This document shows positions 2,599-53,009 of a stretch of 57,106 nt of DNA, piece after piece. How positions within the stretch are numbered: the first letter of the stretch is position 1; each line of letters begins with the position of its first letter. This stretch comes from a virus (lineage: Duplodnaviria; Caudoviricetes). The notes below the pieces were generated by a model. The model searched no databases. It was not told where the DNA came from and saw nothing but the letters and a program-made list of their open reading frames with translations. The DNA lies in IMG/VR virus record IMGVR_UViG_3300048897_000037, positions 1 to 57,106 of that record, one strand, 5' to 3'. Made by a program: the position numbers and the translations under genes.

Positions 2599-2604
2599 GA
2601 TCCG

Positions 2605-2633
2605 AGCGTGCACAGAGAAGTCTCTGGTGTCAA
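2605..2633 (-). promoter_or_regulatory. sigA/HrdB-type promoter
   Basis: TTGACA-N17-CACGCT on minus strand. Confidence 0.6.
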
Positions 2634-2639
2634 CCTGCC

Positions 2640-2668
2640 TGGCCACCCCTCTCCGGACGTGCTACAAT
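2640..2668 (+). promoter_or_regulatory. sigA-type promoter with extended -10
   Basis: TGGCCA-N17-TACAAT, TGn extension. Confidence 0.6.
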
Positions 2669-2674
2669 GGGGAC

Positions 2675-2796
2675 ATCATGACCGTTGGCACGGAAGTGAT
2701 GGCCATAGATGTGGCGCCTAGGACCTCAACCGGACCGACGATGGCGCCAATCGGCCAGAAGGGCCCCTGGATCCTGTCCCAGGGGCCCTTCTTCTT
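2675..2796 (+). ncRNA. putative small structured RNA 1
   Basis: own promoter; hairpins CATCAT-GA-CCGT/ACGG-AA-GTGATG and TGGCC..TGGCGCC/GGCGCCA..GGCCA; terminator follows. Confidence 0.5.
2757..2796 (+). terminator. intrinsic terminator
   Basis: AGAAGGGCCCCTGG/CCAGGGGCCCTTCT plus T-rich tail. Confidence 0.75.
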
Positions 2797-2824
2797 GCCC
2801 TGTGACCCCTCCCTGGGGTACGCT
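2795..2824 (+). promoter_or_regulatory. sigA-type promoter
   Basis: TTGCCC-N18-TACGCT. Confidence 0.55.
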
Positions 2825-2829
2825 TCCGG

Positions 2830-2960
2830 AACGGCATGGCGTGCCGGGTCTCTGGGTAGGGCTTGGATAGTCCCAGGACAAAAGCTCGGGGAACCTGGGC
2901 CAAGCAGGTGGAACCGAGCCTCCCCCTTGAACCCCCCTGGTCTTGTAGCAGGGGGGTTTC
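2830..2960 (+). ncRNA. putative small RNA 2 with kissing-loop motif (copy A, 2848-2919)
   Basis: two adjacent hairpins with complementary loops GGGCTTGGA / GGCCAAG; same architecture at 25432-25493. Confidence 0.6.
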
Positions 2961-2966
2961 TTGGTT
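2929..2966 (+). terminator. intrinsic terminator
   Basis: GAACCCCCCTG/CAGGGGGGTTT followed by CTTGGTTT. Confidence 0.7.
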
Positions 2967-2973
2967 TCAGGAC

Positions 2974-3002
2974 TTGCCCCCCACCCCTCCCCAGGGTATA
3001 GT
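2974..3002 (+). promoter_or_regulatory. sigA-type promoter
   Basis: TTGCCC-N17-TATAGT. Confidence 0.7.
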
Positions 3003-3018
3003 TATGATCATCTGGCAG

Positions 3019-3092
3019 GCCCCCTGTAGCTCAATGGGTCAGAGCACTCTCACCAAAGAGAGATTCCCGTTCGAACCGGGACGGGGGCACCA
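3019..3092 (+). tRNA. atypical or pseudo tRNA (Trp-like CCA in a 6-nt loop)
   Basis: D arm GCTC/GAGC, T arm TCCCG-TTCGAAC-CGGGA, encoded ACCA end; shortened anticodon loop/variable region, bulged acceptor stem. Confidence 0.65.
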
Positions 3093-3129
3093 GAACAACC
3101 AATCTCTTATCCCTTGAAAGGGGAATGCA

Positions 3130-3762
3130 ATGGACTACGCACTGAAGATCAAGAAGCTGAAAAGACTGAAGTGGGCCTGCCGAGCGATCGTGGCGACCGC
3201 CACCTTCGTTTCGGTCTGGGCGAACCAACTCCAAGCACAACGCAACGGAGCGAGCATCTTCATCTCGATCATGCCCCCACTCATCGTGATGGCAGGTTTC
3301 GAGTTGGTGAGCCGAATCCCGATCAGTAACGGGATCTGGGTCACGAGGTTCACTCGGCCCGTGGTTACCGCCAGCATCACCCTGGGCAGCGCCTGGTTGA
3401 GTTACTTCCACCAGCGCGACGCCTTCGGTCGCTACACGACCGACGTTTCCACCATCCGTGTCCTGCCACTGCTCATCGACGGCCTCATGGTCATCGCGGC
3501 GGTGTCCTTGGTCGAACTGAACGTCCAGGTAGCTTTCCTGGAGACCAAGCAGGCCGGCCTGGATGTGAGGGTTGAGCGGGCCCCACGGCCGGCAACCAAG
3601 GTGGTCGCGAAGGCGCCGTCGGGCAAGGAGCGGATCGCCCTGGTCCTAGCCCAGGCCCCCGATCTGGCTATCAAGGAGATCGCGGCCAAGGCTGGCGTGA
3701 GCTACAACTACGCTCACAGCATCGTCAAGGAGCTTCGGCCTCCACAGGCCATCGGGTCATGA
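3130..3762 (+). CDS. DUF2637/SpdA-like membrane protein with C-terminal HTH
   Basis: 4 TM segments, AWLSYFH and LPLLIDGLMVIA motifs, C-terminal IKEIAAKAGVSYNYA; GAAAGGGG RBS. Confidence 0.75.
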   Translation: MDYALKIKKLKRLKWACRAIVATATFVSVWANQLQAQRNGASIFISIMPPLIVMAGFELVSRIPISNGIWVTRFTRPVVTASITLGSAWLSYFHQRDAFGRYTTDVSTIRVLPLLIDGLMVIAAVSLVELNVQVAFLETKQAGLDVRVERAPRPATKVVAKAPSGKERIALVLAQAPDLAIKEIAAKAGVSYNYAHSIVKELRPPQAIGS

Positions 3763-14659: not shown

Positions 14660-15353
14660 GGATGAGGCTCGACTGACCCAGGTGGTGGGGGGAGTCCTGC
14701 GGTCCTGGCTGGACAAGGCCCGTGCGGCCGTGATGAAGCCGTTCCAGCCGGACCCCACCCAGATCTACGGCCTTCAGGGGGCATGGGAGTCCAATGTGGA
14801 CACCATCCTTACGGAGATCGGGAAGATCGGACTGGGGGCTTGGAGTGAGGCGACCGGAGTACCGCCGGTGTCCCGGCACTCGTTCATCGTTGCCTACCTA
14901 TCGGACGTCCGGTCGCTACTGGTACGGATCCCCGATGAGGTGGCGAATCTGGTGTTCGCGGAAATCACGGATGGCGTGAACGCCGGGGAGAGCCGGGACC
15001 AGATCGCTGCCCGGATTGACAGGGTGCTCAGCTACACAGGGTCGGAGCGGTGGCCAAATCGAGCAAGAACCATTGCTCAGACGGAAACGACTCGGGCGCG
15101 TGCCGCTGGAACCATGGGTGCTGGCATCGAACAGAGCAGAGTGTCCGGCAAGCAGCTATCAAAGACCTGGCTGAGCCGTCATGATAACGACGTGCGGACT
15201 GATCATCGAGAGGTCGACGGGAAGACAGTCCCGGTCTGGATGCCCTTCCAGGTCGGTGTCTCCTCGATGCAGTTTCCGGGCGATCCCACTGCGCCCCCAG
15301 GAGAAGTGATCAACTGCCGCTGCAGTCTGGTGATCGGAGATGGAAATGGCTGA
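14646..15353 (+). CDS. MuF-like minor head protein
   Basis: RARTIAQTET, KTWLSRHDNDVRTDH, FPGDP...VINCRC. Confidence 0.85.
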   Translation: MGRNEDEARLTQVVGGVLRSWLDKARAAVMKPFQPDPTQIYGLQGAWESNVDTILTEIGKIGLGAWSEATGVPPVSRHSFIVAYLSDVRSLLVRIPDEVANLVFAEITDGVNAGESRDQIAARIDRVLSYTGSERWPNRARTIAQTETTRARAAGTMGAGIEQSRVSGKQLSKTWLSRHDNDVRTDHREVDGKTVPVWMPFQVGVSSMQFPGDPTAPPGEVINCRCSLVIGDGNG

Positions 15354-17915: not shown

Positions 17916-20900
17916 GTGGGACTGGGCAGCTTTTGGGACCCGAACGACCACCCTCGCGGGTGGCACGGTCGGTTCGCGAAGAAGTGGAAAATCTCCGACA
18001 CGCTTCGGAAGCTGCTCGACGGTTTCACCCCTCGTACGTTCCAGTCGGACAGTCAGGCTGGCCAGTACGCCTTCAACCAGGGCCACAAGAACGGGCCGTT
18101 CTCCTCCGTTGAGCTGACCCGGCTCCGCAAGGACTGGGACGAGGCGCAGGACCACATCAGGGCTGGGGACATGGATCCCCAGACCAAGGCCTTCGACGAC
18201 ATGATGCAGTCCCACATGCATCCGACGTCGGACGGCTTGATCGCCACCACTACGTTCGGCGCGGATGCCTTGGGGCTGCGACCCGACCAGTTGCACGACG
18301 GTCCGGGCGGCATCACCGACCTGTTCGGCACCGTGCTGGGCAACAAGGGATACCAGGCCGTACACCTTGGTACGGATGTCACGCCCGGACAGCATGGTCC
18401 CGGCAAGATCAGCGCCACCATCATGGTGCCGGCCGGAACCCGGGTCGCCTTCCCTGGCCAGTCCCCCCAGGACCGGGGCTTCTTCCTGGACAAGGAACAG
18501 CCCCTGCTCGTCACCCGGATCGACCCGGACGGCATGGGCGGCTGGCGCATCGCTGCGGTCGCCGAACCGCACCCAGGCGTGGGTGCCTCTCAGGTCAGCC
18601 AGGACCTCAACCCCGGTCGCAAGGGGGTAGGCCTCACCCCTGAGGAGCGAGCCGCCCGACTGGCGGAACCATCCACCATGCCAGCACCGGCCACCCCCCA
18701 GGCTGCCCCGGCCACCGAGGCCGTCATGCGCCCCGAGTCGGTGCAGGCGCCCGCCGTGGGCCGCACCCCGGAGCAGGAGGCGGCGCGGGTCCAGCGCGCC
18801 CAGGCTGGGCGGCAGGCCAACGTCAACGAGGGCAACCCCCCGGTCCAGGCCCCACTGCCCACGCCCAACCCTCGGCCAGCCCCAGCCCCACCACCGGCCG
18901 CCGGGCCCCCGTCGCCCACCGGGGTACCGGACCGCAACGAGCCCATCCACGCCCCCTCCATCGGAGGAACAGGCAACGAAGGCAAGTCGGCTTCTGAGAT
19001 TGCCAACCGGCCACCAGAGCCGGCTCCGGAGCCTCCACCGGCGCTGTCCCCGGCAGAGCAGGGCAAGTCGCTCAAAGACGCCTATGTGGAGAGTGGCATC
19101 GAGTCCCCGGCTGCCGGCCCGCACCGGGCTGCCTTCAACCGGGCCTACCTGAACGCCAAGAGTCAGAACGGGCACCCGGAGCAGGCTCTCCGCAACCTGG
19201 AAGCCGACATCAAGTCGGTCGAGGAGAAGGCGGCCGAACAGAAGGTTCACCCCAGTGACCGGGCCGACATGCTCACCGCCGAGGCCGATGCCAAGTCAAT
19301 GAACGACCTGGCCGACCTGATCGCCACACACTTCGGACTACCTCGGGCCAAGAAGGAGGAGAAGGCTCCTAGCTCCCCGGTGCAGCGCACCGGGGCACCT
19401 GATGAGTTCCTGGGCGAGAAGAAGCCGGGCGCCCGCGAAGCCCGCAAGGTGTCCGGGCAGCCATCCCGTAGCGCCACCGGCCTCACCGAGCACGAACAGG
19501 CCGGCGCCGGGCCAGGTACGGCCGGCGTGGGTGGGCGCAAGGAGGGGGCTCCGGAGACTCCCGCGCCGCGCGGCTCCACTGGCACCACCAAGGAGACCCA
19601 GAAGCCCACGGTCAGCGCTGCCCGGGTGAAGGCCGGCGACGTAGTCCTGGCGCGCAAGGATGAGAACGGTAACTGGGTCCACACGTCACGCAAGACGGGC
19701 GCGACTCCGATCACGGTGACCGGCAAGCAGACTGGCAACGGGGCCCACATCATTGAGGGAACCGATCCTGAAGGCAACAAGGTCACCCTTCAGCCGATCC
19801 GTGGCCAGAACGTTTTGCACCGCCACCAGGAGAAGGCGCCCAAGGCGCCGGCCGCCAAGAAGGCGGCCAAGGCTGCGGCGCCCCAGGAGAAGCCGCTCTC
19901 TCACGACGAGATCGCCAAGCGTTCGGCCGAGATGCTGGCCCGTCCACCGGCTACCGGAGGCAAGGAGCAGCCACCGCTAACCGAGGCGGATCACCGGGAG
20001 ATGCTGGCCGGCAACAGCAAGGATCAGCTCCGCAAGATCGGTGAAGACCTGGGCGTCTCGGTGTCCGATAAGGACTCCAAGGCGTCCATGATCGACAAGA
20101 TCGCACCGGCTGCCGCTGCCGACACCGCCAAGCGGCGGGCCGAACGCGTGGCCGGCGAAGGTCCGAGCCCGGCCCTGGGGGAGCGTCAGAGCGCCGACAC
20201 CCCTGCCGTGGACCGTGTTCTGAAGGCCTACAACGACATCGTGGCCCAGGGCGACGGACACGACCGTCGTGTGTCCATTGCGGACATTCGGGCCGAGGTG
20301 GGCGGCGACCTGTCCCGGGCCGAACTGACCCGGGCGCTGCGGGAGATTGGTCGCGGCAACTCCGAGCACGGCGGCTTGCTGTCGCGTGGGGTGAAGCCGG
20401 ACGCCCGCACTGAGGCCAGCGGCATGGACATGGGCGGGGAGAAGGTTCACTTCCTGCAGCTCCCGCGCCCAGGCGAGAAGGAGCGTGGTAAGGAGACCAC
20501 CCCGGTCCCGAAGGAGGAGCCAGCCAAGGCGGTCGCCAAGGCGGCCAAGGCTGTACCGACCAAGGCCCCTGCGAAGGAAACCGGCGACCAGGCCGAGGTC
20601 TCCAAGGTTGCGAGCGCCTTCCATGCGGATTGGCAGAAGACGCAGGCACCCGAGGGGTCTGGCCGCAAGCCCAAGTTCAAGACGACCAAGGACGAAGCCT
20701 GGATCAAGAAGCACGGCACCGATCAGGTCGATATCGCCAACACCTCGTACGCTGATCTGCCCGACGACTGGCAGAAGGAAAACCGAGACGCGGCGGAGGT
20801 AGTGCAGCGCATCCTCAAGGAGCACGGCGGCACTGTTGATCTTTCTGACGAGAAGACGCGCCTTGAGGTTGGCGACCAGATCCACAAGGCTTGGCTGTCC

Positions 20901-23900
20901 CGGGAAAACAACAGCCACGCCAAGGGTGGTGAGCTGGACAAGCCTTTCTCGGAACTCTCCCGCGCAGAGCAGGACAAGGACACCGACCAACTGAAGGTCG
21001 CCATGGAGGTCCTGTCTCCGGCGAAGAAGGGCGGCACCAGTCCCGAAACAGTGTCGGCGGTCAAGCAGGCGTACGAGAACATCGTGGCCCGGCGCGGACC
21101 TGATGGTGACCGCAAGGTGTCCCTGCAGGACATTCGCCAAGAGTTGGATCTGCAGCACGGCTTCAGTCGGCCCGAGGTCGACAAGGCGCTGAAGGAGCTG
21201 GGCCGTGGTGGGTCGGAGCATGGTGGCCTGATCAGCGGTACCACCAACCCCAGCAACCGGGAGGCCGCCGGGGCCATGAAGATGGGCGGCGAGGACGTCC
21301 ACTTCCTGCAGCTACCGCGTCCCGGTGAGGCTGGCCGTGGCGGGGAGGTCACGCCCAACGCTCCCGAGTCTTCTGCTGAAGCGGATGCGGTACGGAACCT
21401 GGCTCCCGCCGACCAGAGCATCTATCACCGTGCCCGGGAAAGCGGGCAGACTCATGAACAGGCCATGGCGACGGTGGCTACCCCTGCGCCGGCAGCCGAG
21501 GCTAAGCCCTTGGAGAAGATGACCAAGGCTGAGCTACTGGCCCACCCTGATGCTGCAGGAGCCAAGCAGTCCTGGACCAAGGACAAGATCAAGCAGCACA
21601 TCCAGGCAGCGCAAGGTGCCAAGACTGCTGCGGCACAACAGGAAGCGGCGAAGGTTGTAGGGAAGGCCGCCCCGCGTCCCACTACACCCATCGACAACGC
21701 CCCCCGGGCCAACGAGTTCACCAAGGCCTGGGACACGGCCGGGATCCCGGAGGCACCGGGCTCGGCCGGGCGCTCCATGAAGGAGATCCGCTCCGACCTG
21801 GCCGAGGGGAAGATCGATCCCGCTGAAGGTGTCCGGCGCATGGAGTCGGAGATCTCCTTCAACAAGGAAGAACTGTCCCAAGTGGAGGCTGACCTCCGCG
21901 CCCCGGACCTAACCGACAAGCAACGGGCTGATCTGCAGGCACAGCACGCCAAGCTCACCGAAGGAGTGAAGGCGCAGGAGAAGGCGTCCGAGTTCCTGCG
22001 CTCCCACTTCGGTGGCGAAGGCGACAAGCCCACCGTGGAGGAAGTGAAGGCGTTCCTTCCGGAAGGTTCGGAGCGCTTCCTGGACAAGGCAACCCCGGAC
22101 GAGATGCGAGATGTTGCCCGGATTCAGGGGCTGGACGAGCCGAAGGGCTCCACGGCCGAGGAGATGTTCAATGACCTGTTGAAGCAGACCGTTGATCGGG
22201 CACTCAAAGAAAAGCGGGAAGAGGGTGCCAGTAAGGCGGCCAAGGCTGAAGCGGCCCGCCTGAAGAAGGAAGCCCGAGAAGCCGGCAAGGCTGGGTTCCG
22301 ACCGGGCGGTGCCAAGCACCTGGACGCGGCGAAGATCGCCGAGGGTTTGGACCTGGGCGAGGACAACAGCTACGTCCAGGACGCCCAGGCTGAGCTGAAC
22401 GACGGCAAGACCCCGAAGCAGGTCGCCGACCGTGTTCGGTTCATGGCCCAGGGGCTGGCCAACAGTAACGCGATCATCCATGGATCTGTTGCTGCCGGCC
22501 ACGAGACGCCCGACGACAAGATGCACCGGGAGACCAAGCTCGCCGAGGGTCGGGCCGCCGTGGCCAAGCTGGAGGAACTGGCCAAGCGGATCGAGGAGTC
22601 CAAGCGCCCCCGCAAGCCTCGGGCGCCGTCCACGAAGCTGACCCCCACGGATCATGTGGCGGCCAGGGAGGCGGCCAAGGCGACCGGTACCCCGGTGGCC
22701 GAGGTGCGCTCCGCTATGGAGGACGCCAAGAAGGCCGACGCCAAGTTGCAGGAGCTGGGCATCCCCACCACGGCCGACGAGCTACACGCCCGGGTGATCG
22801 CGCGCGCCTCAGGGCCGTTCAATGACGCCAAGACCGCCGAGGAAGCACGCCGGGCTGCGACATCCATGCATGGCAACCTGACCCTGGCCGAGATCCGCAA
22901 GATGGGTGCGGAGCACGGCATCACGGGCCGGTCCAAGAAGGACATCACCGACAAGATCATTGAGCGCCGGTTCCCGCCAGAGCCAGGCGCCCCAACTCGG
23001 CTCACTGGTGGCCAGTTCGACCAGTTGAAGGCCGGCGACCCCATCGACATCCACTTGGGCGGCAGCAAGACGCGCAAGGACTCGGTGGCCAAGGTGGACC
23101 CGGATGGCACCCTGCACACGAAGGGTGGCTACAAGTACGGACCCACCAGCGACGTGCAGATCTCCCGGGGCGGAGCGGCCGACACCCGGCCATCCACGCC
23201 GGCTCGCAGCGCCCAGGTGGAGCGGGCCCGGAAGACGGCCGACGTGGTGGCCGAGGTTCACGAACTGGTGGGCAATGGGGCCAGCCCCGACGCCATCCGG
23301 GCCCGGCTGCGCACGGCCGGCCAGGCCAACGGAATCGACACTGCTGAGCTGCAGTCCCTGGCTGATGACCCACAGGCGCTCACCAAGGCGGCTGACAAGC
23401 TGGGCACCTCGGCCGGCCTGTCCCGGGTGGGGGACGTCGGATCCACGACGCCGTTCAACCGGACCAGTCACGAAGGACCCAGTGGCCGGGATCTGGGCAA
23501 CGGGGAGAACGTCCGGGTGACCCGTCCAGGCCACACTGCACGCCTCAGTAACGGCGAGGATGTCACCATCAGCCGGCCCAAGGTGCACCCGGTGTCGGCC
23601 GAGCCAGCGAAGGCAACCCCGGCGAAGCGGGCGGCCAAGAAGGCTCTCCCGGGCCCCCAGGCCAGTCCTCAGGAAGCCTTGGCGGCACTGAACAATGCGA
23701 ACAGCTCCACCACCCGTGAAGAGGCACACGGGATGATCGAACACTTCACGCGTGACGAGCTGATCAGCATGGCCAAGGAGCTGTCAGTTCCCAGCGCCAG
23801 CAGCAAGAGCAAGAAGGCTCTCCGTGATGACATCGTTCATGCGACGGTGGGAGTTCGAGCTGACTCTGAGGCAACCCGTGACCTTCTCCGAGCCCCGCGC

Positions 23901-24821
23901 GCCGGAGACAACGGCTTCCTGCCGACTGACCAGGAGCGACTGGGTGGCCGCCTTGCAGCGGCCAAGAAGGCAGCCAAGGGGGCCGGCCCGGCCGCTGAGC
24001 CACGACTCAGCCCTGCAGCGGAGCAGGCCCGCCTGGAGCAGGAGCGGGCTGACAACATGGCCCGGCTGGCGGCGGCCAAGGCAGTGAAGAAGGCCGCCCC
24101 GACCAAGGCCGCGCCCGCCAAGAAGGAGCGGTTCAGCGAGGCGGCGGCCGAGAAGCAGTTCGGTCCGCAGCCTGGGGAGGCCCGCATTGAGTCTGGCAAG
24201 TTCTCCGACAAGCCGTTGCGTCAGCAGACCTGGGGCGGCCGGGCTCAACCCAATGACGTCCGGTTCCACGAAGATGGAGCTATTGGCAGTGCCCTGAGTT
24301 CGATGGGCCAAGACAAGCGCCTGGATGTTGGTGGCGAGCCGCTCTACAACGTGCTGGGTCAGATCGCCACGGACGTGAACCGTGGAAACATCACCCCGGC
24401 CCAGGGCCTGGAGCGGTACAAGGCCTTGGCGGCTCGACTTCCAGAAGGCAGCAATGCAAGGAAGGAGCTGGAGTACGCCATCCAGAAGATTGACTCCCCT
24501 CCGCGCAAGCCAAACCTGCCAGAGGGGACCCCGGACTACCTTCGGAAGCTGGCTGACCGGTTGGCCGAGATCCCCATTGCCCGCAAGGATGTTGGACGCA
24601 CTGGACGCAAGGGTGAGCTGGACCAGGTGGAGGAGCTGGCCCGACTGTTGACTGACGGAGAGCCCAAGTCTCGATTCACGGCGCAATCCGCACTGGAGAG
24701 GATGATGGGTACCCGGCACGAGAGCGACAGTGACGCCGGGGACCAGCAGATCCTTGCAGCCATCCAGGAAGCACTGAAGGATGAGGAAAGAGCACGGATG
24801 GCCGCCCGTAAGGCGAAGTAG
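17916..24821 (+). CDS. giant multidomain head-associated/ejected protein (degenerate ART, wHTH x2, RyR-like, HeH repeats, GrpE-like)
   Basis: 2301-aa ORF in head module; N-terminal WDPNDHPRGWHGRF motif; domain motifs listed in findings. Confidence 0.75.
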   Translation: MGLGSFWDPNDHPRGWHGRFAKKWKISDTLRKLLDGFTPRTFQSDSQAGQYAFNQGHKNGPFSSVELTRLRKDWDEAQDHIRAGDMDPQTKAFDDMMQSHMHPTSDGLIATTTFGADALGLRPDQLHDGPGGITDLFGTVLGNKGYQAVHLGTDVTPGQHGPGKISATIMVPAGTRVAFPGQSPQDRGFFLDKEQPLLVTRIDPDGMGGWRIAAVAEPHPGVGASQVSQDLNPGRKGVGLTPEERAARLAEPSTMPAPATPQAAPATEAVMRPESVQAPAVGRTPEQEAARVQRAQAGRQANVNEGNPPVQAPLPTPNPRPAPAPPPAAGPPSPTGVPDRNEPIHAPSIGGTGNEGKSASEIANRPPEPAPEPPPALSPAEQGKSLKDAYVESGIESPAAGPHRAAFNRAYLNAKSQNGHPEQALRNLEADIKSVEEKAAEQKVHPSDRADMLTAEADAKSMNDLADLIATHFGLPRAKKEEKAPSSPVQRTGAPDEFLGEKKPGAREARKVSGQPSRSATGLTEHEQAGAGPGTAGVGGRKEGAPETPAPRGSTGTTKETQKPTVSAARVKAGDVVLARKDENGNWVHTSRKTGATPITVTGKQTGNGAHIIEGTDPEGNKVTLQPIRGQNVLHRHQEKAPKAPAAKKAAKAAAPQEKPLSHDEIAKRSAEMLARPPATGGKEQPPLTEADHREMLAGNSKDQLRKIGEDLGVSVSDKDSKASMIDKIAPAAAADTAKRRAERVAGEGPSPALGERQSADTPAVDRVLKAYNDIVAQGDGHDRRVSIADIRAEVGGDLSRAELTRALREIGRGNSEHGGLLSRGVKPDARTEASGMDMGGEKVHFLQLPRPGEKERGKETTPVPKEEPAKAVAKAAKAVPTKAPAKETGDQAEVSKVASAFHADWQKTQAPEGSGRKPKFKTTKDEAWIKKHGTDQVDIANTSYADLPDDWQKENRDAAEVVQRILKEHGGTVDLSDEKTRLEVGDQIHKAWLSRENNSHAKGGELDKPFSELSRAEQDKDTDQLKVAMEVLSPAKKGGTSPETVSAVKQAYENIVARRGPDGDRKVSLQDIRQELDLQHGFSRPEVDKALKELGRGGSEHGGLISGTTNPSNREAAGAMKMGGEDVHFLQLPRPGEAGRGGEVTPNAPESSAEADAVRNLAPADQSIYHRARESGQTHEQAMATVATPAPAAEAKPLEKMTKAELLAHPDAAGAKQSWTKDKIKQHIQAAQGAKTAAAQQEAAKVVGKAAPRPTTPIDNAPRANEFTKAWDTAGIPEAPGSAGRSMKEIRSDLAEGKIDPAEGVRRMESEISFNKEELSQVEADLRAPDLTDKQRADLQAQHAKLTEGVKAQEKASEFLRSHFGGEGDKPTVEEVKAFLPEGSERFLDKATPDEMRDVARIQGLDEPKGSTAEEMFNDLLKQTVDRALKEKREEGASKAAKAEAARLKKEAREAGKAGFRPGGAKHLDAAKIAEGLDLGEDNSYVQDAQAELNDGKTPKQVADRVRFMAQGLANSNAIIHGSVAAGHETPDDKMHRETKLAEGRAAVAKLEELAKRIEESKRPRKPRAPSTKLTPTDHVAAREAAKATGTPVAEVRSAMEDAKKADAKLQELGIPTTADELHARVIARASGPFNDAKTAEEARRAATSMHGNLTLAEIRKMGAEHGITGRSKKDITDKIIERRFPPEPGAPTRLTGGQFDQLKAGDPIDIHLGGSKTRKDSVAKVDPDGTLHTKGGYKYGPTSDVQISRGGAADTRPSTPARSAQVERARKTADVVAEVHELVGNGASPDAIRARLRTAGQANGIDTAELQSLADDPQALTKAADKLGTSAGLSRVGDVGSTTPFNRTSHEGPSGRDLGNGENVRVTRPGHTARLSNGEDVTISRPKVHPVSAEPAKATPAKRAAKKALPGPQASPQEALAALNNANSSTTREEAHGMIEHFTRDELISMAKELSVPSASSKSKKALRDDIVHATVGVRADSEATRDLLRAPRAGDNGFLPTDQERLGGRLAAAKKAAKGAGPAAEPRLSPAAEQARLEQERADNMARLAAAKAVKKAAPTKAAPAKKERFSEAAAEKQFGPQPGEARIESGKFSDKPLRQQTWGGRAQPNDVRFHEDGAIGSALSSMGQDKRLDVGGEPLYNVLGQIATDVNRGNITPAQGLERYKALAARLPEGSNARKELEYAIQKIDSPPRKPNLPEGTPDYLRKLADRLAEIPIARKDVGRTGRKGELDQVEELARLLTDGEPKSRFTAQSALERMMGTRHESDSDAGDQQILAAIQEALKDEERARMAARKAK

Positions 24822-24833
24822 AAGGAGAAGATC

Positions 24834-25004
24834 ATGCCCTGCGCTTGCAACGGTGGTGCGACTCAGTCGACGGCTGCCCAAGACAAGGAGTACGAGGTCA
24901 AGCTGCCCAACGGGCGCACAGAGTACGTGCGCGGGGAGCACGCGGCCAAGGTCGCGGCGACCATGGGCGGTCCCGGTACCACGTACTCCGCCACTGGACG
25001 CTGA
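24834..25004 (+). CDS. small protein (MPCACNGG...) of the kind found before actinophage capsid genes
   Basis: AAGGAG RBS, 56 aa, followed by terminator. Confidence 0.7.
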   Translation: MPCACNGGATQSTAAQDKEYEVKLPNGRTEYVRGEHAAKVAATMGGPGTTYSATGR

Positions 25005-25006
25005 AC

Positions 25007-25042
25007 GCAAAGAAGCCCCCACCGAAATGGAGGCTTCTTTGC
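25007..25042. terminator. bidirectional terminator
   Basis: GCAAAGAAGCC/GGCTTCTTTGC IR where the head operon and the antisense RNA operon converge. Confidence 0.8.
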
Positions 25043-25065
25043 TGCTGGCCTAGATCCCTCTACCA

Positions 25066-25147
25066 ACCCCACCCTGGAGGGAAGCTGAGCGACCCCGAAG
25101 GGTTTCTGCTACCTGGCTGGCAGCTTCGTCAGGCTTAACGGTGGGAC
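25066..25147 (-). ncRNA. type I hammerhead ribozyme
   Basis: minus strand GTTAAGC-CTGACGA-A-GCTGCC-AGCCA-GGTAGC-A-GAAA-CCC-TTCG-GGG-TC-GCTCAGC: complete core, GUC site, UUCG-capped stem III. Confidence 0.75.
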
Positions 25148-25192
25148 TTGCACCTCTCATCACACCTCACCAGCACGGAGAGGTCTTAAGCG

Positions 25193-25266
25193 TGATCCGA
25201 GGAGGGGTCGAACCTCCGACGCGCGGGTTAAGGGCCCGCCGCTCTTGACCGCTGAGCTACCGGATC
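25193..25266 (-). tRNA. tRNA-Lys(CTT), C33 variant, no encoded CCA
   Basis: GATCCGG/TCGGATC acceptor, GCTC/GAGC D stem, GCGGG-CCCTTAA-CCCGC, GGAGG-TTCGACC-CCTCC. Confidence 0.9.
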
Positions 25267-25273
25267 GGGTGGC

Positions 25274-25346
25274 TGGAACTGGTGTCCCAGTCGAGGGGAC
25301 TTCTACACGGTAGCGACCCGTGTTTTCGTGAGGCCTCAACCAGCCC
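25274..25346 (-). ncRNA. tRNA-like cloverleaf RNA
   Basis: GGCTGGT/ACCAGTT then CCA; ACACGG-GTCGCTA-CCGTGT; GTCCC-CTCGACT-GGGAC T-arm-like. Confidence 0.5.
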
Positions 25347-25351
25347 AACCG

Positions 25352-25427
25352 TGGCGCAGGTCGGATTCGAACCGACGATCTCGGGCTTATGGGGCCCACG
25401 GGGACGACCGAACTCCCCTACCGCGCT
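25352..25427 (-). tRNA. tRNA-Met(CAT), initiator-like, C33 variant
   Basis: AGCGCGG/CTGCGCC (A1xC72 mismatch), G11:C24, TGGGC-CCCATAA-GCCCG, GTCGG-TTCGAAT-CCGAC. Confidence 0.88.
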
Positions 25428-25431
25428 CTGT

Positions 25432-25493
25432 TGGTGCCACGCTGCTTGGACAGCCGCACCACTAGACCTGCTACTCCAAGCCCGCTGGTCCAG
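25432..25493 (-). ncRNA. kissing-loop RNA motif (copy B)
   Basis: CTGGACC..GGGCTTGGA..GGTCTAG plus TGGTGC-G-GCTG-TCCAAG-CAGC-GTG-GCACCA. Confidence 0.6.
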
Positions 25494-25500
25494 GTAACCC

Positions 25501-25529
25501 ACCCTACCCAGGCCTCTTGACGGTTGCAA
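25501..25529 (-). promoter_or_regulatory. promoter of the antisense RNA operon
   Basis: TTGCAA-N17-TAGGGT. Confidence 0.65.
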
Positions 25530-25545
25530 CATGTTGATCTACCCT
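25517..25545 (+). promoter_or_regulatory. promoter of the capsid operon
   Basis: TTGACG-N17-TACCCT, overlapping the divergent promoter. Confidence 0.6.
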
Positions 25546-25642
25546 TCGCCCAACAGGTGTCTGGCTTCTGTGCCGGCTTGCTGAGCGGTGGATGCGGCCT
25601 GTCCCTCACCAAGGATGATCGACTTCCTTGTGAGGAGTGACA

Positions 25643-27373
25643 GTGTTCCAAATCCCCGAGGACCTGGACCAGTTCAGTGTCTCCAGCTTGCAGGATCTGG
25701 CCAAGATCGCGCGTGACGAGTACACCGCGCTGAAGGAAAACGTCCGTATCGAGACGGTCACCGCTGAGGAAATCGAGCGCCTGGAGGAACTCCAGGGCTT
25801 CGTGTTCAGCACCGTTCCCACGGAGATCGCCGCGCGCCAGGAGCTGTCCGACCGGTTCACGGCGGCCACCACCGAGCCCAACACCGAGGAGCCGGCCGAG
25901 GAGGCCCCCGCCACTGAGGAGCCGGCGGTTGAGGCCGTCGTGGCCTCCACCAAGGTCACCGTGGCCGACATGAAGGCGGCCGGCGGCGGCAACACCGAGG
26001 TCACCCCCGCCGGGACGACCCGCCAGTCCTACTCCACGCTGGTCGCCTCGGCGACGGTTCAGGCGCAGGGCGGCAGCTACGAGTCCGGCCAGGTCCTGAC
26101 CAGCCTCCTGGACGTGGCCAAGGTGTTCGAGGCCCGCTCCATGGCCCACAACTCGATGGCCGCCCGTGGCATGTCCACGATGACCTCGGGCCCGGTGTCC
26201 TCGCCAGTGGCCCAGCTGGTCCGCAACTACCCGGACGAGTTCTCCGTGTCCGGCACGGATGACGACTACGAGAAGCTGCTCAAGGTCGCCAACGAGGCCC
26301 GACTGCCCGGCGGATCCTTGCTCGCCTCGGTGGAGCTGGACCGCAAGCGTCTCAACACTGAGGCCCCGTACCGGGACTCTCTGGTTGCCGCGCAGGGTTG
26401 GTGTGCTCCCTCGGAGACTGACTACGACATCTGTCTGCAGATCACCACGGACGGCCTGTTCGACGCCCCCGAGGTGCAGGCCCGCCGGGGCGGCATCCGG
26501 CACAACACGGGCCTGGAGTTCGACACGATCTTCGGCGACGGCACCGGGTTCTTCAACCTGACTGAGGCCCAGGTTGCGGCCGGCACCACCAAGACCTGCG
26601 TCGAGATCCCCTGCCCCAGCTTCACTGACACCCGACTGGGTGTCACCGGCCTCTGCCTGACCGGCAACATCCTGGCCATCCGGGGCTACCCGGAGATGAC
26701 CGCCACGTTCACCCGGGGTGCCCTGGCGGCGTCCGCGCACCAGATCAACCGGGAGCAGATCGCGGTCGTGGCGGCCGGCTCCACGGCGGTGTCGCTGGCC
26801 AACCAGCCGTACACCTCCGACGGCAGTGTCGTGTCGCAGGTTCTCAGCGCGGTCGAGATGGCCATTGTGGACATCAAGTACCGGCTGCGGCTGCAGCGCT
26901 CGGCCACCCTGGAAGTGCTCATGCCGTTCTGGATGGGCGCCCAGATGCGGGCCGACTGGATTCGGCGCAACGCCACCGGGTCTGGCCCGGACGCTCTCAC
27001 CCTGGCTGACTCGGCGATCAGCGCGGCCTACGCGGCCCGTGGGGCCCGGGTCCAGTACGTGTACGACTGGCAGGACGCCTTCTCCTCGGCGTCGCTGTCG
27101 GGCGGCGGCCCTGGCGCGGACACTCCGATGACTGAGCTGCCCACCTCCCTGCAGTTCATCGTGTACCCGTCGGGTACGTGGGTCAGGGCGGTGTCCGACG
27201 TCATCACCCTGAACTCGGTCTACGACAGCACCAAGCTGGCCACCAACCAGGTCACGCACCTGTTCACGGAAACCGGCTGGGCGATGTTGAAGATGTGCCC
27301 ACTGTCTCGCATCTACACCGTGGCCATCTGCCCCAACGGCAGCACTGGGGTTCAGCGCGCGGTGACTTGCTAA
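25643..27373 (+). CDS. major capsid (hexamer) protein with N-terminal scaffold-like region
   Basis: LVAAQGWCAPSETDYD, ARRGGI, K-C-EIPCP-F motifs of cluster-B-like MCPs; GAGGAG RBS (alternative start 25637). Confidence 0.88.
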   Translation: MFQIPEDLDQFSVSSLQDLAKIARDEYTALKENVRIETVTAEEIERLEELQGFVFSTVPTEIAARQELSDRFTAATTEPNTEEPAEEAPATEEPAVEAVVASTKVTVADMKAAGGGNTEVTPAGTTRQSYSTLVASATVQAQGGSYESGQVLTSLLDVAKVFEARSMAHNSMAARGMSTMTSGPVSSPVAQLVRNYPDEFSVSGTDDDYEKLLKVANEARLPGGSLLASVELDRKRLNTEAPYRDSLVAAQGWCAPSETDYDICLQITTDGLFDAPEVQARRGGIRHNTGLEFDTIFGDGTGFFNLTEAQVAAGTTKTCVEIPCPSFTDTRLGVTGLCLTGNILAIRGYPEMTATFTRGALAASAHQINREQIAVVAAGSTAVSLANQPYTSDGSVVSQVLSAVEMAIVDIKYRLRLQRSATLEVLMPFWMGAQMRADWIRRNATGSGPDALTLADSAISAAYAARGARVQYVYDWQDAFSSASLSGGGPGADTPMTELPTSLQFIVYPSGTWVRAVSDVITLNSVYDSTKLATNQVTHLFTETGWAMLKMCPLSRIYTVAICPNGSTGVQRAVTC

Positions 27374-48604: not shown

Positions 48605-49036
48605 TCATGACACCTCACGATCTCTGGCCAGTCGAGCAAGGGCACGGTTGAAGTCACCGGAGAGGGCGTCCTGGTCCTGCTTGAGGGCCGCGCGGTCCTG
48701 GATGGCACCGGCAGCCAGGGCCCGAGGGTTGAGGGCCCTGAAACGGCGCTGAGGCAGTGGCGGGATATCGAACTCGTCCCCGAGCCAGACCAGGCCAACA
48801 TCCGGGTTCCAGTCCAGCACCGACGTGGTGCGAGTCAACTCACGGAACACCCGTCGGTTCCTGGCCGCCTCATCCCGCTGGGCCCGGACCTCGCGATCAC
48901 TGGCCCGTGTGGCCCTCCCTGGTGCCCGGTGCCGGCCTTCCGGCTGCGGGTCGGGCATCAGGGCGGCCACCCGGAACATGAGGGCCAGGCAGAAGCTCAG
49001 CGCCTGGAAGCCCCACTGGTTCAGCCTGGCCTTCAT
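48605..49036 (-). CDS. hypothetical protein
   Basis: operon position, RBS. Confidence 0.6.
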   Translation of the reverse strand: MKARLNQWGFQALSFCLALMFRVAALMPDPQPEGRHRAPGRATRASDREVRAQRDEAARNRRVFRELTRTTSVLDWNPDVGLVWLGDEFDIPPLPQRRFRALNPRALAAGAIQDRAALKQDQDALSGDFNRALARLARDREVS

Positions 49037-52022: not shown

Positions 52023-52172
52023 CTTTGCCTGAACATGATCTTGTCCGGCCCGCAAGGCATCCTGGGGCCGGACGTTCTTGCCCGATTGGTAGCCACAGGA
52101 ACACACGGCTACGTAGACATACTCGCTGGAGAAGTACGGGTACTCCTCCAGCGATATTGAATGCCAGTTCAT
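51996..52172 (-). CDS. small CxC...H protein
   Basis: AAAGGA RBS; VAVCSCGY...DH. Confidence 0.55.
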   Translation of the reverse strand: MNWHSISLEEYPYFSSEYVYVAVCSCGYQSGKNVRPQDALRAGQDHVQAKLASPGTPG

Positions 52173-52528
52173 GACAAGATCCTTTCGTCGGTTACAGGCG
52201 TCCACTTCCCGCCCACCTTGATCTCCGTCTTCAGCTCCTCGGCCGGGATGGTGTACCCGTCCAGGACGGCCTCCACCATGGAGGCCCGGCCAGTCTCGAT
52301 CCTGAGCCAGAGCAGGAACTTCGGGTGCTCGGCCATGCGCCGGAACGCCGCCTTCTTGTTCTGCAACTGGGAGCGTTCCTCGCGGGACTCGCCCCGGGCG
52401 CCGGACGGGTGATGGATCACTCGGACCCCGGTGTCGCGCTTGTTCTGGTTCTGGCCGCCGGACCCACCGGACCGGAAGGTCTGCACCTCGCAGTCATGGA
52501 TCGAGACGGACAGGATGCGACGCCTCAT
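52169..52528 (-). CDS. RF-1-domain peptidyl-tRNA hydrolase (GGQ; ArfB/release-factor-like)
   Basis: EVQTFRSGGSGGQNQNKRDTGVRVIHHPSG...ERSQLQNKKAAF. Confidence 0.9.
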   Translation of the reverse strand: MRRRILSVSIHDCEVQTFRSGGSGGQNQNKRDTGVRVIHHPSGARGESREERSQLQNKKAAFRRMAEHPKFLLWLRIETGRASMVEAVLDGYTIPAEELKTEIKVGGKWTPVTDERILS

Positions 52529-52728
52529 GATCTCCACTCCGCATCTTTGCGGTCTGCACAGGGCCAGAAGCCACCGCAGTAGTTGCATACCGCGTGAGTC
52601 TGGTGGTCTTCGGACGGGTACCACGGAGAATGCCGGTCGCAGATCCGGTCCAGCCGGGCGCCAAAATCCATGATCGTCTTGGCCTGGTTCACGAAGCGCT
52701 CCGGGTAGTACTTGCTCTGATCCTCCAT
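52525..52728 (-). CDS. Zn-binding hypothetical protein
   Basis: H.P...CNYCGGFWPC; GGAGG RBS. Confidence 0.6.
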   Translation of the reverse strand: MEDQSKYYPERFVNQAKTIMDFGARLDRICDRHSPWYPSEDHQTHAVCNYCGGFWPCADRKDAEWRS

Positions 52729-52742
52729 GATCATCACCTCCC

Positions 52743-53009
52743 TCACGGCATGTGGTGTGACGGCTCAACTTCCTCCACGGCGAACAGCTCCTGCTGCCCG
52801 TCCAGAACCTGTGGTGCCGGCGCCCGCGTCGACCCGGTGCAATGGGGGCACAGACGTACCTCGGAGTAGAACCCGGAGTGCAACGTCCCCCGCCACACGT
52901 GCCAGCCCCGGGCTCGGAGTCGGTCGTCGGAGGGGGTACCACCCCCCAGGTCCAGGTACACGCCCTGGCAGCCGCCCAGCTTGTTGCGGTCGCAGTACAC
53001 GTTGCTCAT
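52743..53009 (-). CDS. Cys-rich hypothetical protein
   Basis: CD....C...RARGW...LCPHC. Confidence 0.6.
   Translation of the reverse strand: MSNVYCDRNKLGGCQGVYLDLGGGTPSDDRLRARGWHVWRGTLHSGFYSEVRLCPHCTGSTRAPAPQVLDGQQELFAVEEVEPSHHMP

What the first reader, a model, noticed from the sequence alone, without database searches (positions are those of the whole stretch)
2848..2919. Kissing-loop RNA motif present twice with different stems but shared loops (copy A)
Copy A (+): GTC-T-CTGGG[TA GGGCTTGGA TAGT]CCCAG-GAC, AAAA, then GCTCGG-GGA-ACCTG[GGCCAAG]CAGGT-GGAA-CCGAGC. Copy B (-, 25432-25493): CTGGACC-A-GC[GGGCTTGGAGTA]GC-A-GGTCTAG, then TGGTGC-G-GCTG[TCCAAG]CAGC-GTG-GCACCA. The outer stems differ in sequence yet pair in both copies, while GGGCTTGGA and CTG..CCAAG-CAG are kept and CUUGG/CCAAG are complementary. 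That is the pattern expected of a conserved RNA fold. Both copies lie near the 5' end of predicted transcripts. I do not recognise the family. Possible roles (inference): 5' exonuclease block, protein sponge, or pRNA-like hand-in-hand oligomer.
Basis: partly seen in the sequence, partly recalled or inferred. Interest (0 to 1): 0.82.

Follow-up and report, generated by a model that had tools for sequence, protein, structure and literature searches.

The report
Twin-hairpin RNA beside phage tRNA genes
An uncultured soil phage carries two copies of a short two-hairpin element, each just after a promoter and next to tRNA genes; it looks like a real small structured RNA, but it has no known relatives and its job is unproven.

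Summary
Both copies exist exactly as described (2848-2919 +; 25432-25493 -). The window is a whole 57-kb virus record, actinophage-like. The shared words alone are at chance level genome-wide, A and B are not significantly alike by BLAST or by a covariance model, and folding z-scores are ordinary. What exceeds chance is the combination. Both copies lie in the two largest non-coding gaps. All four conserved words sit in loops of strong local hairpins (1 of 3000 random draws as good). None of 124 chance sites elsewhere carrying both words has such hairpins. Both copies have the same polarity: promoter, hairpin 1, hairpin 2, tRNA. Copy A is a free-standing promoter-to-terminator unit. Copy B is the 5' leader abutting tRNA-Met. 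No Rfam family fits. I found no homologue in IMG/VR, metagenome or GTDB pattern scans, in 3 related phages, or in 151 Actinomycetota genomes. In two near-identical strains the copy-A unit is swapped for other sequence. Best reading (about 0.45): an orphan small structured RNA expressed with accessory tRNA cassettes, whose conserved loops are the working surface. The loop-loop kiss is plausible (5-7 bp) but unproven with two copies. Interest is moderate.

The parts
2795..2824 (+). Promoter P2 of unit A. The -35 is TTGCCC at 2795-2800, the spacer is 18 nt, and the -10 is TACGCT at 2819-2824. The predicted start is about 2831.
   Evidence: Read by eye; the tool scan did not flag it. It shares a 26-nt motif with P3 (2 matches against 0.04 expected). 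In two related strains the homology breaks at 2830-2832.
2848..2879 (+). Hairpin 1 of copy A: 3 bp, a 1-nt bulge, then 5 bp. The 15-nt loop holds GGGCTTGGA at 2859-2867.
   Evidence: -11.0 kcal/mol. Ensemble probability is about 0.3 in the full transcript.
2884..2919 (+). Hairpin 2 of copy A: 6 bp, a 3x4 internal loop, then 5 bp. The 7-nt loop is GGCCAAG. The conserved word CCAAGCAG lies at 2900-2907, followed by GTGGAACC.
   Evidence: present in both MFE and centroid; -18.9 kcal/mol, as low in 0.5% of controls.
2932..2967 (+). Intrinsic terminator t2 that ends unit A. The stem is 2932-2939/2949-2956, followed by a T-rich tail.
   Evidence: Formed in both MFE and centroid.
2974..3002 (+). Promoter P3 (TTGCCC-17-TATAGT), in front of the odd tRNA.
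   Evidence: Flagged; shares a motif with P2.
3019..3092 (+). tRNA-like gene with a 6-nt anticodon loop (ACCAAA) and an encoded CCA end.
   Evidence: ARAGORN reports 'tRNA-???'. The Rfam tRNA model scores 40.7 bits.
25501..25529 (-). Promoter of unit B. The -35 is TTGCAA at 25529-25524, the spacer is 17 nt, and the -10 is TAGGGT at 25506-25501. The predicted start is about 25495-25493.
   Evidence: Read by eye. Not flagged, because the -10 matches only 3 of 6 positions of the E. coli consensus.
25462..25493 (-). Hairpin 1 of copy B: 7 bp including one G-U, an A/A mismatch, then 2 bp. The 12-nt loop holds GGGCTTGGA at 25483-25475.
   Evidence: MFE; -12.2 kcal/mol; kept when tRNA-Met is attached.
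25432..25461 (-). Hairpin 2 of copy B: 6 bp, a 1x3 internal loop, then 4 bp. The 6-nt loop is TCCAAG. CCAAGCAG lies at 25449-25442, followed by C and then GTGGCACC.
   Evidence: MFE and centroid; -14.4 kcal/mol.
25351..25427 (-). tRNA-Met(CAT), 4 nt downstream of copy B.
25192..25266 (-). tRNA-Lys(CTT), the second gene of the same predicted transcript.
25008..25043 (.). An 11-bp hairpin between the small conserved ORF (24834-25004) and the tRNA cassette. It is the likely end of both convergent transcripts.
   Evidence: Read; not tested.

Best explanation
The two copies are paralogues of a small structured non-coding RNA domain of about 62-72 nt. It consists of two adjacent imperfect hairpins, and it is expressed as the first element of two accessory RNA cassettes of an uncultured soil actinophage.

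In cassette A a sigma-70-type promoter, the element and an intrinsic terminator form a free-standing unit of about 135 nt. Here the element itself is the product, as for an sRNA gene.

In cassette B the same domain starts at about +1 of a tRNA-Met/tRNA-Lys precursor and ends 4 nt before tRNA-Met. RNase P cleavage would therefore release it as a small RNA of about 70 nt.

The stems serve only to present two apical loops. The sequences of those loops are held constant (GGGCUUGGA, and CCAAG with its closing CAG), and they are the working surface. The loops can pair with each other over 5-7 bp. In cis this would clamp the two hairpins into a compact V. In trans it would link copies or bind a partner carrying the same words.

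Shown: the sequence, the hairpins, their position and polarity, and the lack of any known family.

Inferred: transcription, RNase P release, loop-loop pairing and action in trans.
For: - All four conserved words lie in loops of local hairpins that are far stronger than background. The sum is -56.5 against -24.9 +/- 7.9 kcal/mol, with 1 of 3000 draws as low. Against intergenic controls the fractions are 0.006 and 0.013.
- 0 of 124 chance sites with both words have such hairpins.
- Both copies lie in the two largest non-coding gaps. Both run in the same order: promoter, H1, H2, tRNA.
- Unit A is bounded by a promoter paralogous to P3 and by a terminator. In two other strains exactly this stretch, 2831/2833 to 2951, is exchanged while the flanks stay 86-98% alike. 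It therefore behaves as a gene-like cassette.
- The copy-B hairpins are the MFE and the centroid, with or without tRNA-Met attached.
- The hairpins are more stable on the predicted RNA strand than on the opposite strand in 4 of 4 cases (sum -56.5 against -46.9).
- Loop-loop complementarity of this length has a chance of 4.2% for A and 0.34% for B.
- The stems share no alignable sequence while the loops are identical.
Against: - There are only two copies, and no homologue anywhere that I searched. Pattern scans gave nothing convincing. 0 of 3 related phages have it, and 0 of 151 Actinomycetota genomes.
- The shared words alone are at chance level.
- blastn gives E = 0.34 and the covariance model gives 1.9-6.2 bits.
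- Fold z-scores are ordinary: +0.37, -0.81 and -1.01.
- In the full unit-A transcript the MFE is a different long-range fold, and the drawn hairpins hold only about 0.27-0.33 of the ensemble.
- The loops do not vary between copies, so nothing tests the kiss by covariation.
- The copy-A unit is not kept at 80% or more in the two closest strains, so it is dispensable or fast-changing.
- Promoters P2 and PB were called by eye and not by the scan tool.
- I have no expression data.
Confidence: 0.45

Rival explanations
1. Chance resemblance. Two unrelated pairs of leader or spacer hairpins in hairpin-rich non-coding RNA regions happen to share two short words. There is no common element.
For: - Shared 9-mer plus 8-mer pairs with 6-nt complementarity are as common in shuffled genomes (5-18) as in the real one (12).
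- blastn gives E = 0.34.
- The covariance model of A alone scores B at 1.9-6.2 bits.
- Fold z-scores are unremarkable.
- No third copy and no homologue were found.
- The tRNA cassette holds other hairpins too.
Against: - About 10 such chance pairs per genome, times the squared non-coding share (0.078 squared), gives about 0.06 expected pairs with both sites in non-coding DNA. This is my inference.
- On top of that, all four words sit in strong hairpin loops (1 of 3000; 0.006 and 0.013; 0 of 124 chance sites).
- The polarity towards promoter and tRNA is the same in both copies.
Confidence: 0.17
2. A cis-acting modifier of RNA polymerase that works like the put RNAs of phage HK022. The nascent twin hairpin would bind the elongating polymerase and suppress pausing or termination downstream. 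In unit A that means read-through of t2 into the odd tRNA and gene 3130-3762. In unit B it means protecting the untranslated tRNA transcript.
For: - The anatomy matches what PMC9378689 says of put (passages read). Put has two copies per phage, each about 70 nt, with two stem-loops carrying bulges and with sequence similarity between copies. One copy lies just after its promoter, and the structure is V-shaped.
- Copy A is followed 12 nt later by an intrinsic terminator.
- Hairpin 1 of A holds a -10-like word (TAGGGC, at +27 to +32 of the predicted transcript). This recalls the -10-like pause element at +23 to +28 of putL.
Against: - There is no terminator between copy B and its tRNAs.
- After gene 3130-3762, and after tRNA-Lys, transcription would run antisense into converging genes, so long-range read-through has no obvious use.
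- P3 already serves the odd tRNA.
- The -10-like word lacks the final T.
- My model R2 finds nothing in HK022 at E up to 1.
- Put does not need complementary loops.
Confidence: 0.1
3. A 5'-terminal protective or processing structure. The hairpins would simply block 5'-end-dependent decay (RNase J, RNase E) or set up RNase P processing, and the loop words would have no role of their own.
For: - Copy B begins within about 3 nt of the predicted start.
- It directly abuts tRNA-Met, and the cloverleaf and both hairpins fold side by side.
Against: - Copy A has a 17-nt unpaired 5' tail and has nothing downstream to protect but its own terminator.
- The stems have changed completely while the loops are identical. 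That is the opposite of what a purely structural block predicts.
Confidence: 0.1
4. A DNA-level site. The inverted words GCTTGG...CCAAGC just downstream of two promoters would be operator half-sites for a phage regulator, or recombination sites used in cassette exchange.
For: - Both copies lie directly downstream of promoters.
- The unit-A cassette is exchanged between strains, with breakpoints beside it.
Against: - The spacing between the two words differs by 7 bp (32 against 25 nt), which would put the half-sites on different helix faces.
- The local hairpins around each word would be unexplained.
- The hairpins are stronger on the transcribed strand in 4 of 4 cases, and one stem pair is G-U.
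- The exchange breakpoints lie at the transcription start and in the terminator, not at the words.
Confidence: 0.06

Closest known systems
HK022 putL/putR antiterminator RNAs
   Same: Two copies per phage genome. Each is about 70 nt with two adjacent imperfect stem-loops. Both are promoter-proximal on early-type transcripts, and sequence similarity is limited to parts of the element (PMC9378689, passages read).
   Different: - The host is an enterobacterium.
- Put is not described with loop-loop complementarity (none in the passages read).
- Put acts on long operons with terminators, which copy B lacks.
- There is no similarity by my covariance model.
- Rfam 15 reports no family at all in HK022, so no curated put model was available to test against.
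T-box leader (RF00230), Stem III plus T-box sequence
   Same: The conserved 3' strand of hairpin 2, GTGG[A/C]ACC preceded by CCAAGCAG, equals the core GGTGG[C/A]ACCGC seen in six T-box leaders that my pattern pulled out. The element lies beside tRNA genes, and copy A is followed by a terminator.
   Different: - RF00230 does not match the window at E up to 10. It does match those six leaders at E 5e-15 to 6e-9.
- There is no Stem I.
- Only a 4-bp remnant of an antiterminator can be drawn, and there is no second helix (my reading).
- Copy B has no regulated gene and no terminator.
Small stable RNAs encoded within phage tRNA clusters (T4 species 1 and 2 RNAs; recalled, no paper retrieved)
   Same: Short structured RNAs of unknown function, co-transcribed with phage tRNAs and released by the tRNA-processing enzymes.
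   Different: Different phage, host and size. No sequence comparison was made here.
Kissing-loop RNAs such as antisense copy-number controllers, and riboswitch loop-loop clamps (recalled)
   Same: Short complementary apical loops of 6-7 nt on stable stems. The two stems arise from a common base, as in loop-loop clamped riboswitch arms.
   Different: In those systems the kiss is supported by covariation or structures. Here the loops are identical in both copies and nothing tests the pairing.
Phage tRNA cassettes as counter-defence against host tRNA nucleases
   Same: The element travels with accessory tRNA genes (Met, Lys and an aberrant tRNA). PMC10264068 (abstract and passages) proposes that phage tRNAs with changed anticodon loops replace host tRNAs cut by VapC-type enzymes. 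PMC5175351 (passages) shows that five mycobacterial VapCs cut tRNA-Trp(CCA) in the anticodon loop.
   Different: Those papers concern tRNAs, not a non-tRNA hairpin element. Any decoy role of the element is my inference.

Membership tests
HK022 put RNA | About 70 nt with two adjacent stem-loops carrying bulges, in two copies per phage, downstream of promoters | tested here: met
   for the hairpins. The promoters were read by eye and supported. The family description is from PMC9378689.
HK022 put RNA | Sequence and structure similarity to putL/putR | tested here: not met
   Model R2 gives no match in the HK022 genome at E up to 1. Rfam 15 has no family hitting HK022, so no curated model exists to test the window against.
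HK022 put RNA | Suppresses downstream terminators by binding the RNA polymerase beta' zinc-binding domain | not testable with these tools
   A terminator follows copy A. None follows copy B before the tRNAs.
T-box leader (RF00230) | Match to the family covariance model | tested here: not met
   There is no RF00230 row at E up to 10 for 2600-3150 or 25150-25650. The positive controls L142, L143, L145, L150, L153 and L174 all match (6 of 6, E 5e-15 to 6e-9).
T-box leader (RF00230) | T-box core word in the 5' strand of an antiterminator that competes with a terminator | tested here: not met
   The core word is present in both copies. However, it lies on the 3' strand of hairpin 2. Only 4 bp (2905-2908 with 2936-2939) of an antiterminator can be drawn in A, and none in B (my reading).
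tRNA (RF00005) | Cloverleaf recognised by ARAGORN or Rfam | tested here: not met
   Searches find only the three neighbouring tRNAs. With thresholds relaxed to 50-70%, ARAGORN calls overlapping junk across both regions.
Small self-cleaving ribozymes (hammerhead, twister, pistol, hatchet, HDV-like) | Match to any Rfam ribozyme model | tested here: not met
   None is listed at E up to 10. The only ribozyme-class row is a truncated RNase P model at 10.8 bits, E = 7.
Intramolecular kissing-loop motif | Complementary apical loops | tested here: met
   5 bp in A and 6 bp in B within the loops, or 6-7 bp with the closing pair. The chance is 4.2% and 0.34% of 40,000 draws each.
Intramolecular kissing-loop motif | Covariation between the two loops across homologues | tested here: inconclusive
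   The loops are identical in the only two copies, and no further homologue was found.

The most novel reading that the evidence does not exclude
The element is an RNA mimic aimed at tRNA-Trp biology.

The loop of hairpin 2 reads like an anticodon loop with anticodon CCA. In B it is U-CCA-A-G and in A it is GG-CCA-A-G. The pattern of U33, the anticodon and A37 is general tRNA knowledge, recalled here.

The loop of hairpin 1 presents the Trp codon UGG followed by A. The 3' strand of hairpin 2 carries the T-box-type word that, in T-box leaders, binds a tRNA 3' end.

Co-encoded with replacement tRNAs and an aberrant tRNA whose 6-nt loop also reads CCAA, the element could act in two ways. It could be a decoy for host anticodon nucleases that cut tRNA-Trp, as five mycobacterial VapCs do (PMC5175351). 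Or it could be a clamp on the tRNA-Trp anticodon loop. Either way it would be an RNA-based counter-defence module.
Probability: 0.06. Interest if true: 0.85.

Novelty: new variant of a known kind. Interest (0 to 1): 0.4.

Why it matters
If real, this is a new small structured RNA that phages carry together with accessory tRNA genes. That would add a non-tRNA component to cassettes now discussed as counter-measures to host tRNA-cutting defences. It would also be a compact natural example of two hairpins clamped by a loop-loop helix.

The exchange of exactly the promoter-to-terminator unit between near-identical strains suggests that small RNA genes are swapped as cassettes in these phages. At present the element is an orphan with two copies. 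The value of the finding is that of a well-defined candidate for a simple expression and probing test, not of an established family.

Tried and rejected
- **Rfam.** At gathering score over the whole window, and at E up to 10 over both regions, I found only the tRNAs and noise.
- **Pattern scans, viral contigs.** None has the hairpins, and they reduce to 101 distinct sites. Two stricter patterns gave 0. A third gave 24 stretches, 15 of them already seen.
- **Pattern scan, metagenome contigs.** 16 stretches, either chance hits or T-box leaders.
- **Pattern scan, GTDB genomes.** 23 stretches, all chance.
- **Last viral pattern.** It was rejected by the tool's format rule and I did not resend it.
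- **Synteny.** Three relatives were found through the major capsid protein at 71-73% identity. They have no tRNA cassette and no element. The 210-aa neighbour protein has homologues in two of them. Upstream of the G003 homologue there is a promoter and leader but no element, and ARAGORN finds no tRNA in either locus. It has no close relatives in IMG/VR.
- **tRNA-Met neighbours.** In Arthrobacter phage Racecar and Streptomyces phage Annadreamy there is no such leader.
- **Covariance models.** R1 and R2 found no third copy. The next-best match scores 20.2 bits at 48863-48913 and lies inside an ORF. There were no matches in 151 sampled Actinomycetota genomes or in HK022.
- **Relaxed ARAGORN.** Uninformative.
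- **Loop-to-tRNA duplex predictions.** They mostly use stem nucleotides of the tRNAs and were set aside.
- **Sequencing runs.** No RNA holder is listed, so I have no expression data. Parts of 2853-2945 had no cover in the laid contigs.
- **Literature.** Searches for a described equivalent found none. That covers these four searches only. Supplementary files were not consulted.

Full report
**What the window is.** The window is a complete IMG/VR virus record of 57,106 bp, estimated 88% complete. It is actinophage-like. Its major head protein (25637-27373, phrog_777, E 2.6e-120) is closest among cultured phages to Actinoplanes phage phiAsp2 at 45% identity. Three uncultured relatives share that protein at 71-73% identity. 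A crude gene map based on third-position GC leaves about 4.45 kb (8%) non-coding. The two largest gaps are 2647-3129 (483 nt) and 25005-25636 (632 nt). Copy A and copy B lie in these two gaps.

**The observation.** The pattern of the two loop words occurs once on each strand of the record, and not at all when the pattern is read backwards.

**Is it more than chance?** Several tests say no.
- Pairs of loci that share any 9-mer plus any 8-mer at similar spacing number 1336 in this genome.
- Those in which the two words are also complementary over 6 nt or more fill 12 locus-pair bins. Twelve second-order Markov shuffles gave 5-18.
- blastn of the two intergenic regions aligns the elements over 58 columns at 69% identity, E = 0.34.
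- MAFFT aligns them out of register.
- Folding energies are ordinary against dinucleotide shuffles: z = +0.37 for A and -0.81 for B.

Other tests say yes.
- I forced each 5-nt core (CTTGG or CCAAG) to stay unpaired and enclosed by a stem drawn from 16 nt on either side. The four hairpins then score -11.0, -18.9, -12.2 and -14.4 kcal/mol.
- Among 6000 random genome positions, the fractions at least as low are 0.117, 0.005, 0.076 and 0.031.
- The sum of -56.5 is reached in 1 of 3000 simulated quartets, whose mean is -24.9 with sd 7.9.
- Against intergenic positions only (8208 positions, elements excluded), adjacent pairs as good as A make up 0.006 and as good as B 0.013.
- As an outside control, 0 of 23 GTDB sites and 0 of 101 distinct viral sites that carry both words by chance have a hairpin sum as low as copy B.
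- About 10 chance word pairs per genome, times the squared non-coding share, gives about 0.06 expected pairs in non-coding DNA (my inference). With the hairpin result on top, coincidence is unlikely, though the criteria were chosen after the fact.

**Anatomy and context of copy A.** The region 2640-3130 holds three small units on the + strand.
- **Unit 1.** A promoter flagged by the scan (2640-2668) is followed by a strongly structured 126-nt stretch. That stretch ends in a 14-bp terminator stem (z = -4.87, 0 of 200 shuffles as stable).
- **Unit 2.** A second promoter (2795-2824) was read by eye. It shares a 26-nt motif with the third promoter: 2 matches against 0.04 expected, and 0 of 100 shuffles with two matches. 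It is followed by a 17-nt tail, the element (2848-2919), and an intrinsic terminator 12 nt later (2932-2967).
- **Unit 3.** The flagged promoter 2974-3002 is followed by an aberrant tRNA (3019-3092) and then the 210-aa gene at 3130.

Unit 2 therefore contains nothing but the element. When the whole predicted transcript (2831-2967) is folded, the MFE is a different long-range fold.

**Anatomy and context of copy B.** On the minus strand, TTGCAA-17 nt-TAGGGT (25529-25501, by eye, not flagged) places the start at about 25495-25493, which is the first base of hairpin 1. Hairpin 2 ends 4 nt before tRNA-Met (25427-25351). tRNA-Lys(CTT) follows after 84 nt. Both hairpins are the MFE and the centroid, and they persist when tRNA-Met is attached, which then folds as a cloverleaf beside them. 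The whole cassette is an insertion compared with the three relatives. There, the small conserved ORF (MPCACNGG...) is followed by a terminator and then the capsid gene, with no tRNA (0 tRNAs in 3 loci).

**What is conserved.** The stems share no alignable sequence. Three things are kept:
- the loop-1 word GGGCTTGGA;
- CTG, 1-2 nt, CCAAG, CAG around loop 2;
- GTGG[A/C]ACC on the 3' strand of hairpin 2.

The loops can pair over 5 bp in A and 6 bp in B, or 6-7 bp if a closing pair opens. Loops of these sizes drawn from the genome reach that in 4.2% and 0.34% of 40,000 draws. The hairpins are more stable on the predicted RNA strand in 4 of 4 cases. In the structure-fitted alignment, 34 of 36 cells pair and 6 of 19 pairs differ on both sides, against 23-38% of cells paired when partners are slid. 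That alignment leans towards the structure and has only two rows.

**Relatives.** None was found.
- Rfam has no family for it.
- Exact-word scans of IMG/VR gave only chance sites or nothing.
- The metagenome scan gave 16 sites and the GTDB scan 23, at about the expected chance number and from unrelated taxa.
- The two-copy model R2 finds no third copy in the window (best other match 20.2 bits, inside an ORF). It finds nothing in the 3 relatives, in 151 sampled Actinomycetota genomes, or in HK022.
- In G003, the homologue of the 210-aa gene (39% identity) has a promoter and a structured leader upstream, but no element and no tRNA.

**Near-identical strains.** Contigs from two other soil or rhizosphere runs, from two studies, keep the flanks. 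In X2 these are 2554-2832 with 40 changes and 26 gaps, 2952-3015 with 4 changes, and 3088-3350 with 5 changes. X2 replaces 2833-2951 with 87 other letters and 3016-3087 with 82 others. X3 replaces 2831-3087 with 278 letters. The left breakpoint is the predicted transcription start and the right one lies in the terminator. The unit therefore behaves as an exchangeable RNA-gene cassette. The replacing letters were not shown, so I cannot tell whether they hold a diverged twin hairpin. This result cuts both ways: it supports the promoter and unit boundaries, and it shows that the copy-A sequence itself is not held fixed.

**Mechanism.** I commit to a small structured RNA that acts through its loops. 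Unit A has the form of an sRNA gene. Unit B would deliver the same domain by tRNA processing. Diverged stems with fixed loops are what a loop-reading partner, or a loop-loop contact between copies, would produce. A purely protective 5' structure would conserve stems and not loops, and it does not fit the 17-nt tail of A.

The anatomy is strikingly like the HK022 put RNAs: two copies, about 70 nt, two bulged stem-loops, promoter-proximal and V-shaped (PMC9378689, passages). But copy B has no terminator to overcome, and both units run into converging genes.

**The T-box lead.** Five of the 16 metagenome hits and one of the 23 GTDB hits that I tested are T-box leaders (6 of 6 tested, E 5e-15 to 6e-9, all below the family's gathering score). 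In them the two loop words form Stem III and the GTGG[A/C]ACC word is the T-box core. This is partly a selection effect of my pattern. The window itself does not match RF00230, the word lies on the wrong strand of its hairpin, and only a 4-bp antiterminator remnant can be drawn. The element is therefore not a T-box.

Still, the word, the CCA-type loop of hairpin 2, the UGG in loop 1, and the neighbouring tRNA with a CCAA loop keep a tRNA-Trp-related reading alive at low probability. Actinobacterial VapC toxins are known to cut tRNA-Trp in the anticodon loop (PMC5175351, passages). Phage tRNAs have been proposed as counter-measures to such enzymes (PMC10264068, abstract and passages).

**Verdict.** The interpretation as a conserved RNA fold with kissing loops is plausible but rests on two copies. 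The element belongs to no known family. Its function is open. Its closest functional analogies are put-type twin hairpins and the small stable RNAs of phage tRNA clusters.

Noticed in passing
window 3019-3092 (+): This tRNA-like gene has a perfect 5-bp anticodon stem but a 6-nt loop (ACCAAA). Its T arm and D arm are good and it encodes the CCA end. ARAGORN calls it 'tRNA-???' with a 2-nt anticodon, and the Rfam tRNA model scores 40.7 bits. No other IMG/VR contig has this anticodon arm with a T loop. blastn against cultured phages matches only its 5' third. In strain X2 this stretch is replaced by 82 other letters.
   Followed up: partly
window 2640-2800 (+): This is a separate small unit upstream of copy A. 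The flagged promoter at 2640-2668 is followed by a 126-nt stretch with a highly significant fold (z = -4.87) that ends in a 14-bp terminator stem. It may be another small RNA or a leaderless mini-ORF.
   Followed up: partly
window 52169-52942 (-): A 257-aa protein with an RF-1 (peptide chain release factor / peptidyl-tRNA hydrolase) domain, PF00472, E 1.5e-15. It is a translation-related accessory gene in the same phage as the tRNA cassettes.
   Followed up: no
window 2795-2824 and 2973-3002; G002 and G003 record ends: There is a phage-specific promoter family, TTGCCC-N5-CCCCTCCC-N2-GGGTA. A 21-nt piece of it recurs at 95% identity near the ends of two related phage records.
   Followed up: partly
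window 25050-25560: The tRNA-Met/tRNA-Lys cassette, with its own promoter, is an insertion between the conserved small ORF (24834-25004) and the capsid gene. The three relatives have only a terminator there.
   Followed up: yes
window 2831-3087 compared with runs X2 and X3: Near-identical strains in other soil or rhizosphere metagenomes keep the flanks. They swap the promoter-to-terminator unit and the tRNA for other sequence of similar length.
   Followed up: partly
window 17916-24821 (+): A single 2301-aa ORF lies just upstream of the capsid gene. I did not examine it.
   Followed up: no
L142, L143, L145, L150, L153, L174: Six loci fetched by my pattern are T-box leaders by E-value (5e-15 to 6e-9), yet all score below Rfam's gathering threshold of 93 bits (53-77 bits). 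They are missed at the default threshold.
   Followed up: yes
window, whole: The 8-mer CCAAGCAG occurs 7 times against 2.3 +/- 1.5 expected, and 0 of 100 shuffles have 7. The 9-mer GGGCTTGGA has a third exact copy at 14836-14844, inside a gene.
   Followed up: no
window 2852-2861 and 25510-25501 (-): A third shared word, CTGGGTAGGG, lies in the 5' arm and loop of hairpin 1 in copy A. In copy B it lies 21 nt further upstream, where it overlaps the -10 of the promoter. The single-copy covariance model preferred this shifted register.
   Followed up: partly
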